Positions 29,001 to 32,000 of a stretch of DNA of 64,000 bases are shown here, piece after piece (the stretch's first letter is position 1; every line of letters begins with the position of its first letter). Where the stretch lies: the NCBI RefSeq assembly GCF_030013205.1, contig NZ_CP122648.1; one strand, given 5' to 3'. The DNA comes from Escherichia coli (GTDB taxonomy: Bacteria > Pseudomonadota > Gammaproteobacteria > Enterobacterales > Enterobacteriaceae). Position numbers: made by a program.

Positions 29001-32000
29001 CAGCGTGCTATGTGCGGGCTATCAGGCGTTTTATTCTTACTCCGCACCGCATATGCGGGTGATGCGTGATCTGATAAAGCAGCATCGTTCTCCCATGGAG
29101 CTGATGACGATGCTGCGGTGACGTGAGCTTAAACGGGCTGCCCCTGATGCGACATCCGCGTCGCCAGCGGTAGCCAGCACAGCACGATCAACAATCCCAT
29201 TAAGGTCATCAACAACCCCAGGCTGCCCTGACCGGTTTGCGGCAACATCGCAGAGAGCGACGCCAGCACGCCGGAACCAATGTTTTGCAGACCGCCGACC
29301 AGCGCGCCAGCCGTGCCCGCCAGGAAGGGGAACGGTTCCATCGCGCCGCTGGTCGCCAGCGGAAACAGCATCCCGGCACCGAAAAAGAACAGCGCGGCGG
29401 GAACGAGCAGCGTCCAGACATTCATCACGCCAAACCAGTCGGGGATCCACATCAGCAAGCCAGCCAGCAGGCAGCAGATAACCGACTGCCACATTAACGT
29501 TGAGAAGCGTTTATTAGGACGTCCGGCAAACCATGCCCCAAAAAATGCCGCCGGAATCGGCAGAATAAACAAAATACTGACCGTCATACTGCTCAGCCCT
29601 AACACCGCGCCCATCAGCACGCCGGAGCAGGCTTCAAAGGCGGCAATCCCGGCCAGACCGCCAATCAGCATCAGCAAATAACAGTTAAAACCGCTGTTAC
29701 CGAAAAGCGTTTTATAACTGGTAAGCAGGCGTGTGCGCGGTGCGTCGACCGGACGCGTTTCTGGCATCCAGCGGGCCATACTGAAGGTCACACCGGCACA
29801 AAGTACCAACAAAAAGAGATAACAGGCGCGCCAGTTCCACATCGTATCCAGCAGACCGCCGATTAGCGGTGCGAGCAACGGACTGACAAGAATTCCCATG
29901 TTTAACAGGCTATTAGCATGGCGCAACTGTGTCCGTTCATATAAATCACGCGGCAAAGTACGCGCCATTACGCCGCCAACGCCGGTGCCCATCCCCTGCA
30001 TCGCGCTGGCGGCAATCAATACTGTCAAACTGGAGGTCGTGACCGCGACCAGCGTTGCCAGCATAAAAATGGACATTCCGACGAGGATCACCGGTCGGCG
30101 ACCCACACGGTCGGAAATCGGGCCATAAAACAGCTGTGAGACACCGTAAGTCAGCAGATAAGCGCCCATTACGCTCTGCACCGCCCCTTCACGGACGTTG
30201 AGATCGCGCGCCATATCGGCAATAGCTGGAATATAAATGGTTTGCGCCATCTGACCGACGGCCACGAGTAATACCAACATCAATAACAAATTGACGTTTC
30301 TATGCCTTTTCATTATCACGGATGCTTTTATAAAAATAATTAGAATAAGTCACTACGCATTCCCATAAATGCGGGAGAGGAATCTATCACATTGATAAAT
30401 GTTAGCCAGATATACGCCAGGAATGGGGAATTGTTTAGCGGCAGAATATGTAAACAAAAGCGGCAATAAATGTTGCCGGGAGGGATTACGTGCGAACAGT
30501 AACCCTCTCCCTGAAAGGACGAGGGGGAAACCACCGTTCCCTTTCAGAAAATGAGCTAAACATTGCACGGGACGGTCCCCTCGCCCCTCTGGGGAGAGGG
30601 CTAGGGTGAGGGGCACAGGCAGCGCAGGTGCAAACATTCTGCTGGTAGAAGAAGCCCCCAACTCCAACTCACACGCTAAATATAAAAGGGGAGCGGTTAC
30701 CCGCTCCCCTTTAGTGCGACTTGAATCTGAATTACTTCAGGTATTTCAGAACAGCATCAAGCAGTTGCAGTGCTGCAACAATGAGTTTGAGGATAAGAAT
30801 GGCGATATCCACCAGGCTCATACGCGTCTCCTGTGGTTCAGGAGCACTGCCAGCTGACGTACCTTTCCGCTGCCTGTTGCCAGCTGTTGTGCACGCGGTA
30901 TCTCAAGGAGAAACGTTGTGCTTGTTGACATAACACAGTGTGCTCACGCGGGGTTAAGGCGCTGACGGCACCACCCGTTTCAGCCAGGACTTAGTGCGCC
31001 GGGTAACGATGCGGCCCCCACATAACACATTGCGTACAGTGATATTATAGAAGTTTACTGTATAAATAAACAGTAATATTTGAACAAAACGCAAACTGTG
31101 AACGATACTCAACTATGCACTAAATACGTCAAAATTCGTGCCGAAATTGCGCGTTCTGTGCGGAACACGTATACTTTCTGTGTTGACATAATACAGTGTG
31201 CTTTGCGGTTACCAGCCGCAGGCGACTGACGAAACCTCGCTCCGGCGGGGTTTTTTGTTACCTGCAATTTAGTTCAAAACGTGATCAACCCCTCAATTTT
31301 CCCTTGCTGAAAAATTTTCCATTGTCTCCCCTGTAAAGCTGTGCTTGTATAAATATTGTTAAACACAAAACCAACAAGGTCCCCAATGACTACTTCCATG
31401 CTCAACGCAAAACTACTACCAACTGCGCCATCCGCCGCAGTGGTCGTCGTGCGTGTGGTGGTGGTCGTCGGCAATGCGCCGTAGGGACTGGAACAACACA
31501 CGATTCCAAAACCCCGCCGGCGCAAACCGGGCGGGGTTTTTCGTTTAAGCACCTCCCGGAAAGTCGGCCCAGAAGAAAAGGACTGGAGCATGGCAAGTTC
31601 GGGCACAACATCGACGCGTAAGCGCTTTACCGGCGCAGAATTTATCGTTCATTTCCTGGAACAGCAGGGCATTAAGATTGTGACGGGCATTCCGGGCGGT
31701 TCTATCCTGCCTGTTTACGATGCCTTAAGCCAAAGCACGCAAATCCGCCATATTCTGGCTCGCCATGAACAGGGCGCGGGGTTTATCGCTCAGGGAATGG
31801 CGCGCACCGACGGTAAACCGGCGGTCTGTATGGCCTGTAGCGGACCGGGTGCGACTAACCTGGTGACCGCCATTGCTGATGCGCGGCTGGACTCCATCCC
31901 GCTGATTTGCATCACTGGTCAGGTTCCCGCCTCAATGATCGGCACCGACGCCTTCCAGGAAGTCGACACCTACGGTATCTCTATCCCCATCACCAAACAC

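What the first reader, a model, noticed from the sequence alone, without database searches (positions are those of the whole stretch)
30687..31260. tisB/istR SOS toxin locus with a 22-bp direct repeat that may define the sRNA-target pair
TisB (29 aa) is encoded on the minus strand with its own terminator, and a perfect LexA box lies at 31058-31073. The sequence tgttgacata(a/t)(c/t)acagtgtgct occurs at 30921-30942 and again at 31183-31204; the second copy sits right after a TATACT -10 element and is followed about 70 nt later by ggcggggtttttt. If the tisAB mRNA (minus strand) spans the first copy, a plus-strand IstR-1 starting at the second copy would be complementary to it in trans. The ORF track did not report tisB because of its size.
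Basis: partly seen in the sequence, partly recalled or inferred. Interest (0 to 1): 0.45.

Follow-up and report, generated by a model that had tools for sequence, protein, structure and literature searches.

The report
Known tisB/istR-1 toxin-antitoxin locus

Summary
The window is an E. coli chromosome, 100% identical to porcine ETEC/O139 strains. The locus is emrD–ysdE–tisB–istR–ivbL–ilvB, as in K-12.

- **Repeat:** It is 21/22 identical, with one C/T difference that gives a G·U wobble in the RNA duplex.
- **Copy 2:** this is the 5' tail of IstR-1. Rfam istR scores 148 bits, and the K-12 curated ends map to 31184-31256.
- **Copy 1:** on the minus strand this is the published "22-nt istR repeat" AGCACACTGTGTTATGTCAACA in the tisAB 5' UTR, about 100 nt upstream of the tisB start. 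It is the ribosome standby site.
- **Other features:** the LexA box (31056-31075), the TisB ORF (N2S, the dominant E. coli variant), both terminators and the TATACT −10 are all confirmed.
- **Conservation:** the repeat pair, its ~250-bp spacing and the LexA box are conserved in 13 loci from at least six enterobacterial genera, with one position changed on both sides (A-U to G-C).
- **Mechanism (shown in K-12, inferred here from sequence identity):** IstR-1 blocks 30S standby binding on the processed +42 mRNA and triggers RNase III cleavage.

Novelty: already known. Interest is low.

The parts
30732..30821 (-). tisB CDS, 29 aa, MSLVDIAILILKLIVAALQLLDAVLKYLK (N2S relative to K-12)
   Evidence: ORF list. 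Pfam PF13939 at 37.6 bits, NCBIfam NF011340 at 69.9 bits and TIGR04459 at 61.5 bits, all above cut-off. RefSeq annotates tisB at the same coordinates in an identical genome. N2S is the dominant E. coli variant, 85% (PMC11264685).
30679..30712 (-). tisAB intrinsic terminator: hairpin 30712-30685 plus U-rich tail
   Evidence: Terminator scan and inverted repeat I4, 12 bp and 100% complementary. The stem is conserved, with compensatory changes, in 13 loci. A 359-nt RNA (PMC2577331) starting at +1 = 31037 ends at 30679.
30818..30931 (-). tisA ORF (37 aa), reported as untranslated; it contains the IstR-1 target
   Evidence: ORF list. No family match. Eight of 13 loci lack about 34 nt of it. The literature states tisA is untranslated (PMC2826370).
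30923..30944 (-). Repeat copy 1: the IstR-1 target and ribosome standby site in the tisAB 5' UTR (mRNA reads AGCACACUGUGUUAUGUCAACA; about +94..+115)
   Evidence: It is the single best duplex partner of the IstR-1 tail in the window, at -37.7 kcal/mol against a next best of -23.5. It is the published 22-nt istR repeat (PMC2577331).
30949..30996 (-). Highly conserved 5' structured segment of the processed (+42) tisB mRNA, immediately upstream of the standby site
   Evidence: A nearly invariant block in the 13-locus alignment. The functional standby site is reported to include a 5' structure element (PMC6690012). +42 maps to 30996 if +1 = 31037.
31016..31035 (-). 5' segment of the primary (+1) tisAB mRNA, predicted to pair with and mask the standby site; it contains the third partial repeat copy (31020-31032)
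   Evidence: Repeat family D1. In the MFE fold of +1, nt 3-22 pair with nt 85-105. Target opening cost is 10.5 kcal/mol in +1 and 7.3 in +42. The literature reports a 5' UTR structure that masks the standby site (PMC5668327).
31037..31049 (-). tisAB promoter -10 TATAAT (31049-31044) and inferred transcription start at about 31037
   Evidence: Sequence. The TATAAT -10 is reported 99.8% conserved (PMC11264685). The +1 is inferred from agreement with the published +42, +106 and 359-nt landmarks.
31056..31075 (.). LexA operator TACTGTATAAATAAACAGTA, overlapping the -35/spacer of the tisAB promoter
   Evidence: Identical to K-12. A CTG-N10-CAG box is conserved at the same relative position in all 14 loci. 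LexA control of tisB is established in the literature.
31081..31109 (+). istR-2 promoter: -35 TGAACA (K-12 has TGGACA) and -10 GATACT (31104-31109)
   Evidence: Alignment to K-12. Promoter hexamers are named in PMC11264685. The G at 31083 is present in the other 12 aligned loci.
31117..31256 (+). IstR-2 (140 nt; LexA-controlled longer form that contains IstR-1)
   Evidence: K-12 curated coordinates transferred by alignment. Rfam RF01400 covers 31127-31256.
31147..31175 (+). istR-1 promoter: -35-like TTGCGC (31147-31152) and -10 TATACT (31170-31175)
   Evidence: Sequence. TATACT is 100% conserved in E. coli (PMC11264685). ATTGCG and TATA(C/G)T are conserved across genera.
31181..31202 (+). Repeat copy 2: the 5' single-stranded tail of IstR-1 that pairs with copy 1 in the mRNA
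   Evidence: The first 12 nt of the tail are unpaired in the predicted IstR-1 MFE fold. Mean P(unpaired) over nt 1-21 is 0.63 in IstR-1 and 0.31 for the same bases inside IstR-2.
31184..31256 (+). IstR-1 antitoxin sRNA (73-75 nt): tail, internal stem-loop, and terminator hairpin 31231-31254 with a U-tract
   Evidence: K-12 curated ends, Rfam, fold, terminator scan.

Best explanation

How it works: DNA damage inactivates LexA, which otherwise sits on the operator at 31056-31075, and the minus-strand tisAB mRNA is transcribed from about 31037. The primary (+1) transcript is translationally inert, because its 5' end masks a single-stranded 'standby' region about 100 nt upstream of the structured tisB ribosome-binding site. 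Removal of the first 41 nt yields the active +42 mRNA. On this form, 30S subunits preload at the standby site with the help of protein S1, then slide to the tisB start. The constitutively made plus-strand sRNA IstR-1 (31184-31256) carries repeat copy 2 as its unstructured 5' tail. This tail forms a roughly 22-bp duplex with the complement of copy 1 in the mRNA. The duplex occludes the standby site and directs RNase III cleavage to the inactive +106 species. TisB is therefore made only when SOS-induced mRNA outnumbers IstR-1. TisB then depolarises the inner membrane and promotes persister formation.

Shown here: the identity of all parts, uniqueness of the pairing, conservation, and predicted accessibility. 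Taken from K-12 experiments on an identical pairing sequence: transcript ends, processing, standby competition, RNase III cleavage and toxicity.
For: - Organism and synteny: 100% identity to E. coli chromosomes, with tisB and ivbL annotated, and the same gene order as K-12.
- The 940-nt stretch from the tisB terminator to the ilvB start (30661-31600) differs from K-12 at only 13 positions. None is in either repeat copy, the LexA box or the -10 hexamers.
- TisB family models: NF011340 E = 1.3e-19, TIGR04459 E = 4.6e-17, PF13939 E = 2.1e-9.
- Rfam istR: 148.2 bits, full-length.
- The repeat is unique, with 0 of 100 shuffles matching.
- The tail-target duplex is -37.7 kcal/mol and is the only strong partner in 64 kb apart from the tail's own antisense strand. 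The next best is -23.5.
- Fourteen loci from Citrobacter, Salmonella, Pseudenterobacter, Siccibacter, Franconibacter and unnamed Enterobacteriaceae were retrieved without constraining the variable tail positions. All 13 with enough upstream DNA keep the repeat pair at 20-22/22 identity, 247-258 bp apart, with a LexA box in between. The 12 whose retrieved DNA reaches that far, plus the window, encode a 29-aa TisB.
- Position 8 is A-U in E. coli, Salmonella and two Citrobacter loci, and G-C in six loci. Three of the tail/target differences are G·U wobbles.
- With +1 = 31037, the published landmarks fall into place: target +94..+115, +106 inside the duplex, +42 inside the uxaA-antisense 20-mer, and the 359-nt RNA ending in the terminator U-tract (PMC2577331).
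- Predicted folds: the target is harder to open in +1 (10.5 kcal/mol) than in +42 (7.3), and the RBS is sequestered in all forms at about 13 kcal/mol.
- Mechanism in the literature: PMC4147584, PMC6690012, PMC5668327, PMC2826370, PMC11264685.
Against: - Nothing contradicts the explanation.
- No expression data exist for this particular strain.
- The predicted +42 MFE structure still shows part of the target in a weak hairpin, where probing found it single-stranded. The +1/+42 accessibility difference is only about 3 kcal/mol.
- Five of the 13 non-window loci have an internal A·C mismatch at position 6 or 8, and one has a C·A mismatch at position 19, so the duplex is not perfect everywhere.
- Cross-species variation is small. 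Only one position shows a change on both sides, and the retrieval pattern fixed 9 of the 22 tail positions.
- This strain carries a rare G-to-A change in the istR-2 -35. Its effect is unknown.
Confidence: 0.97

Rival explanations
1. The longer, LexA-controlled IstR-2 (31117-31256), rather than IstR-1, is the RNA that acts through the repeat.
For: IstR-2 contains the whole IstR-1 sequence, including copy 2. Its promoter -10 (C/GATACT) and the GACA of its -35 are conserved across genera. Deleting the istR-2 promoter gave an unexpected persister phenotype (PMC2826370).
Against: In the predicted IstR-2 fold the tail is largely paired in a local hairpin: P(unpaired) is 0.31 against 0.63 in IstR-1. 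The literature states that IstR-1 alone represses tisB and that IstR-2 does not (PMC11264685; PMC2826370).
Confidence: 0.03
2. The repeat acts at the DNA level, for example as two binding sites for a regulator (its core ACACAGTGT is nearly palindromic, and both copies contain TTGACA), or it is a neutral remnant of a local duplication with no present function.
For: Each copy contains a perfect -35 hexamer TTGACA and a quasi-palindromic core. A second weak similarity follows copy 1 (30942-30955 against 31239-52, 12/14 identical, family D5), as a duplication remnant might.
Against: No -10 follows either TTGACA at a proper distance, and the promoter scan finds nothing there. The copies are conserved across at least six genera while the flanking tisA sequence is deleted in eight loci. 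Position 8 changed on both sides and several other differences are G·U-compatible, which RNA pairing predicts and DNA-site conservation does not. Direct in-vitro evidence exists for RNA-RNA pairing and for competition with 30S subunits (PMC6690012).
Confidence: 0.01

Closest known systems
tisB/istR-1 (tisAB-istR) type I toxin-antitoxin locus of E. coli K-12 MG1655 (b4618/b4616)
   Same: The genomic position (emrD-ysdE-tisB-istR-ivbL-ilvB) and architecture are the same. Both repeat copies, the LexA box, all -10 hexamers, the tisB RBS and the IstR body are identical.
   Different: TisB is N2S, the majority E. coli allele. There are a few SNPs: the 5' UTR at 31020, the istR-2 -35 at 31083, the spacer at 31102, the IstR-2 stem at 31159, and 31179 just upstream of IstR-1. 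A ~183-bp intergenic repeat insertion lies downstream of the tisB terminator, where K-12 has a REP element.
dinQ/agrB, zorO/orzO and shoB/ohsC (divergently transcribed type I TA loci of E. coli)
   Same: The layout is the same: toxin mRNA and sRNA are transcribed divergently, a short direct repeat in the DNA gives trans complementarity within a long toxin 5' UTR far from the RBS, and the mRNA is activated by 5' processing. dinQ is also LexA-controlled (PMC4147584; PMC5668327).
   Different: The toxin peptides, sRNAs and repeat sequences are different. These are analogues, not the family found here.
hok/sok, ldr/rdl, ibs/sib (cis-antisense type I TA loci)
   Same: A small hydrophobic membrane toxin is repressed by an antisense RNA, with RNase III cleavage of the duplex.
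   Different: There the antitoxin overlaps the toxin gene on the opposite strand, giving full complementarity. Here the antitoxin gene is separate and complementarity is limited to the 22-nt repeat.

Membership tests
tisB/istR-1 type I toxin-antitoxin system | 29-aa hydrophobic TisB peptide that matches the curated TisB models | tested here: met
   NF011340 at 69.9 bits (cut-off 53), TIGR04459 at 61.5 (cut-off 38), PF13939 at 37.6 (cut-off 25).
tisB/istR-1 type I toxin-antitoxin system | Divergently encoded istR sRNA (Rfam RF01400) with a Rho-independent terminator | tested here: met
   148.2 bits against a gathering score of 45, model positions 1-130 of 130, + strand at 31127-31256. Terminator hairpin plus U-tract.
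tisB/istR-1 type I toxin-antitoxin system | 21-22 nt of complementarity between the IstR-1 5' tail and the tisAB 5' UTR, about 100 nt upstream of the tisB RBS | tested here: met
   22 bp including one G·U, -37.7 kcal/mol, unique in the window. The target's 3' end is 102 nt upstream of the tisB AUG.
tisB/istR-1 type I toxin-antitoxin system | LexA operator at the tisAB promoter (SOS control) | tested here: met
   The sequence criterion is met: TACTGTATAAATAAACAGTA at 31056-31075, identical to K-12, overlaps the -35/spacer upstream of the TATAAT -10. LexA binding itself was not tested.
tisB/istR-1 type I toxin-antitoxin system | Conserved chromosomal context between emrD and ivbL-ilvB | tested here: met
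tisB/istR-1 type I toxin-antitoxin system | Transcripts with the expected ends, +42 processing, IstR-1-dependent RNase III cleavage (+106), TisB toxicity, and rescue by IstR-1 | not testable with these tools
   Established for K-12, and toxicity also for the N2S variant, in the literature. Inferred here from sequence identity.

The most novel reading that the evidence does not exclude
The repeat could be the visible footprint of how this antitoxin arose. In that reading the IstR-1 tail, the standby-site target and the 5' masking segment of the +1 mRNA (the third partial copy at 31020-31032) are all versions of one quasi-palindromic module. A second weak similarity next to copy 1 (30942-30955 against the IstR terminator at 31239-31252) hints that the target region is a decayed duplicate of an istR-like gene, or the reverse. 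Separately, this lineage's rare istR-2 -35 allele and the repeat insertion beside the tisB terminator might shift tisB/istR expression.
Probability: 0.15. Interest if true: 0.2.

Novelty: already known. Interest (0 to 1): 0.05.

Why it matters
The locus itself matters. TisB is a model SOS-induced persistence toxin, and IstR-1/tisB is the paradigm for antisense inhibition by competition with standby ribosomes. This finding adds nothing to that knowledge. The pairing, the 22-nt repeat, the LexA control and the conservation across E. coli are all published. The value of this check is to show that the first-stage reader correctly recognised a sub-ORF-threshold toxin gene and its trans-acting sRNA from raw sequence, and that the locus can be annotated with confidence and set aside.

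Tried and rejected
- **The search for related loci with TisB:** I replaced it with a degenerate istR DNA pattern scan of genome contigs.
- **Full-length IstR-1 × tisAB RNAduplex:** it gave an extended -73.5 kcal/mol 'duplex' covering most of IstR-1. I disregarded it, because RNAduplex ignores intramolecular structure and shuffled sRNAs already average -51.7. Only the 22-24-nt tail interaction is specific.
- **Sub-threshold Rfam hits:** P6 at 31510-31567 and mir-1275 at 30504-30599 score far below their gathering scores. They fall on the ivbL attenuator terminator and on the intergenic inverted repeat, so I treat them as chance.
- **Promoter scan:** the promoter-like site TTCACA-16-AATATT on the minus strand at 31102-31075 is not the tisAB promoter. 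The TATAAT at 31049-31044 fits the published transcript landmarks.
- **Third partial copy (31020-31032):** I considered it as a second IstR-1 site. It is better explained as the 5' masking element of the +1 mRNA.
- **Frequency of the istR-2 promoter allele:** megablast cannot count it properly, because K-12-like alleles leave no 28-nt exact word in the 65-nt query. The 17 identical and 83 similar genomes indicate rarity only.
- **D5 similarity (30942-55 against 31239-52):** 12/14 identical, too short to separate from chance, and not pursued.

Full report
**What is in the sequence.**
I read 30400-31600 and listed ORFs of 20 aa or more. The minus strand carries a 29-aa ORF at 30732-30821 (MSLVDIAILILKLIVAALQLLDAVLKYLK). 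Downstream of it is a perfect 12-bp GC-rich hairpin (30712-30685) with a T-rich tail. Flanking genes are an emrD-like MFS transporter (29129-30319, minus), the 32-aa IlvB leader peptide (31386-31484, plus) and ilvB (31590 onward, plus).

The direct repeat is real. The repeat finder reports it as family D2, at 30923-30944 and 31181-31202, 21/22 identical. The pattern TGTTGACATAAYACAGTGTGCT occurs exactly twice in 64 kb even with 3 mismatches allowed, and in none of 100 dinucleotide-preserving shuffles.

Only position 12 differs (C against T).

The LexA core CTGT-N8-ACAG sits at 31058-31073, as stated. The full 20-mer TACTGTATAAATAAACAGTA (31056-31075) is the only match in the window within 3 mismatches of the palindromic consensus. 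TATACT lies at 31170-31175 and GGCGGGGTTTTTT at 31244-31256.

**Identity of the locus.**
An 801-bp query around the finding is 100% identical to several porcine ETEC/O139 E. coli chromosomes, in some at the very same coordinates. RefSeq annotates tisB and ivbL under the match.

The ORF passes the curated cut-offs of both NCBIfam TisB equivalogs and of Pfam TisB_toxin. Rfam's istR model (RF01400) matches 31127-31256 on the plus strand over its full length, at 148.2 bits against a gathering score of 45.

In K-12 MG1655 the same interval is annotated ilvB–ivbL–istR (IstR-1 and IstR-2)–tisB–ysdE–emrD. A base-by-base alignment maps the curated ends onto the window: IstR-2 5' end at 31117, IstR-1 5' end at 31184, and the common 3' end at 31256.

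Both repeat copies, the LexA box, the three -10 hexamers, the tisB Shine-Dalgarno and the IstR-1 body are identical to K-12. The differences are:
- the TisB N2S codon;
- SNPs at 31020, 31083, 31102, 31159 and 31179, plus a few outside the locus;
- a ~183-bp insertion downstream of the tisB terminator.

**The pairing.**
The two RNAs are transcribed divergently, so a direct repeat in the DNA yields complementary RNAs. The 24-nt IstR-1 tail forms a -37.7 kcal/mol duplex with minus-strand 30946-30923. Scanning the whole window on both strands gives only this site and the tail's own antisense strand at that energy. The next best candidate is -23.5 kcal/mol. The single C/T difference becomes a G·U wobble.

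In the predicted IstR-1 fold, the first 12 nt of the tail are unpaired in the MFE structure. Mean unpaired probability is 0.63 over nt 1-21, against 0.24 for the rest of the RNA. The tail is followed by an internal stem-loop and the terminator hairpin. In IstR-2 the same bases are largely paired (0.31).

**Transcript geometry.**
A TATAAT lies on the minus strand at 31049-31044, immediately downstream of the LexA box. Placing +1 at 31037 gives these positions:
- the target falls at +94..+115;
- the published RNase III product +106 falls inside the duplex;
- the published +42 end falls inside the 20-nt uxaA-antisense segment, where Weel-Sneve et al. locate the cleavage;
- the 3' end of their 359-nt RNA falls in the terminator U-tract at 30679;
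- the tisB AUG falls at +217, about 100 nt downstream of the target.

The +1 position is my inference from this agreement, not a measured value.

In the predicted +1 fold, nt 3-22 pair with nt 85-105, which includes the first 12 nt of the target. Opening the target costs 10.5 kcal/mol in +1 and 7.3 in +42. The tisB RBS costs about 13 kcal/mol to open in all three forms. This agrees qualitatively with the published model. It also explains the third partial 'copy' at 31020-31032 (family D1): the target core ACACUGUGU is almost palindromic, so a sequence complementary to it looks like a copy of it.

**Comparative evidence.**
I scanned one genome per species (GTDB) with an istR pattern that fixes only the positions invariant in the Rfam consensus. 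This returned 14 loci, from Citrobacter (7), Salmonella enterica subsp. arizonae and diarizonae, a second Escherichia, Pseudenterobacter, Siccibacter, Franconibacter and two unnamed Enterobacteriaceae.

In all 13 loci with enough upstream DNA:
- the tail has a direct-repeat partner of 20-22/22 identity;
- the partner lies 247-258 bp upstream;
- a CTG-N10-CAG box lies between them, 113-124 bp upstream of the tail.

A 29-aa TisB ORF is present in the 12 of these loci whose retrieved DNA reaches that far, and in the window.

The 22-mer target and the about 45 nt upstream of it in the mRNA are among the most conserved blocks. By contrast, about 34 nt of the tisA frame are missing in eight loci, in line with tisA being untranslated.

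Position by position:
- position 8 is A-U in E. coli, Salmonella and two Citrobacter loci, G-C in six loci, and A·C in two Citrobacter loci;
- positions 12 and 21 vary only as G-C or G·U;
- three loci have an A·C at position 6, and one has a C·A at position 19.

This is modest but genuine support for RNA pairing. The caveats are that variation is low and that the pattern fixed 9 of the 22 tail positions.

Within E. coli, a 41-nt query centred on copy 1 is found in 4,346 of 5,426 complete genomes, and 3,575 of these are identical. This fits the published >99% conservation of the standby site among loci and the absence of the locus from some strains (PMC11264685).

**What is already published.**
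- IstR-1 has 21 nt of complementarity to the tisB 5' UTR, tisB is LexA-controlled, and the duplex is an RNase III substrate (Vogel et al. 2004, as summarised in PMC4147584).
- IstR-1 competes with standby ribosomes on the +42 mRNA, while +1 and +106 are inactive (Darfeuille et al. 2007, as summarised in PMC6690012, and PMC5668327).
- IstR-1 is constitutive, IstR-2 is LexA-controlled and not required for repression, and tisA is untranslated (PMC2826370).
- The exact 22-mer is named 'the 22-nt istR repeat' (PMC2577331).
- Promoters, LexA box, standby site and RBS are conserved in more than 2,000 E. coli genomes, and TisB N2S is the dominant and toxic variant (PMC11264685).
- dinQ/agrB, zorO/orzO and shoB/ohsC share the divergent layout.

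**Verdict.**
The feature is the known tisB/istR-1 locus, and the repeat is the known sRNA-target pair. Novelty: already known. Interest: 0.05.

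Noticed in passing
window 30483-30665: A ~183-bp insertion relative to K-12 lies between ysdE and the tisB terminator, where K-12 has a REP element. It contains an imperfect inverted repeat (arms 30500-30526 and 30577-30603). It is unannotated. The full element is present in 1,497 of 5,426 complete E. coli genomes, and its ~65-bp core recurs at a median of 3 places per genome, so it is a small repeated extragenic element polymorphism.
   Followed up: partly
window 31083 and 31102: The istR-2 promoter carries TGAACA instead of the K-12 -35 TGGACA (94.5% conserved in E. 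coli per PMC11264685). This G is present in the other 12 aligned loci from other species and genera. The exact 65-nt allele occurs in only 17 of 5,426 complete genomes, all or mostly porcine strains, though megablast word size limits that count. Its effect on IstR-2 or tisB expression is unknown.
   Followed up: partly
window 31020-31032: A third partial copy of the repeat (ACATAACACATTG, 12/13 identical to copy 1) lies near the 5' end of the tisAB primary transcript. In the predicted +1 fold it pairs with the first half of the IstR-1 target, consistent with the published 5' UTR masking element. It is well conserved only in Escherichia, Salmonella and some Citrobacter.
   Followed up: yes
window 30942-30955 vs 31239-31252; 31244-31259 vs 31530-31545: There are short similarities between the sequence just after copy 1 and the IstR terminator (12/14), and between the IstR terminator and the ivbL attenuator terminator (15/16, plus an inverted match at 31508-31523). 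The second kind was also noted in PMC11264685 as a common terminator-like sequence. Both are probably chance or convergent GC-hairpin-plus-U-tract sequences.
   Followed up: no
window 30993-31012 and 30752-30767 (minus strand): The 20-nt uxaA-antisense and 16-nt dinD-antisense segments of tisAB described by Weel-Sneve et al. 2008 are both present unchanged in this strain.
   Followed up: partly
window 30887-30921; loci L006-L011, L014, L016: About 34 nt of the tisA reading frame, just 3' of the IstR-1 target in the mRNA, are absent in 8 of 13 loci from other genera, while tisB and the target are kept. This is comparative support that tisA is not a functional coding sequence.
   Followed up: partly
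window 30395-30469 (+): The 24-aa ORF annotated as ysdE in RefSeq and K-12 has no Pfam or NCBIfam match.
   Followed up: no
window 511-591 (-), 6068-6110 (-), 16240-16312 (+): Other Rfam hits above gathering score in the window are AsdA (antisense RNA of dnaA mRNA, 101.9 bits), ES036/CssrF sRNA (50.9 bits) and a ROSE_2 RNA thermometer (100.4 bits). With the matching record coordinates, they suggest the window is the first 64 kb of a dnaA-anchored E. coli chromosome.
   Followed up: no
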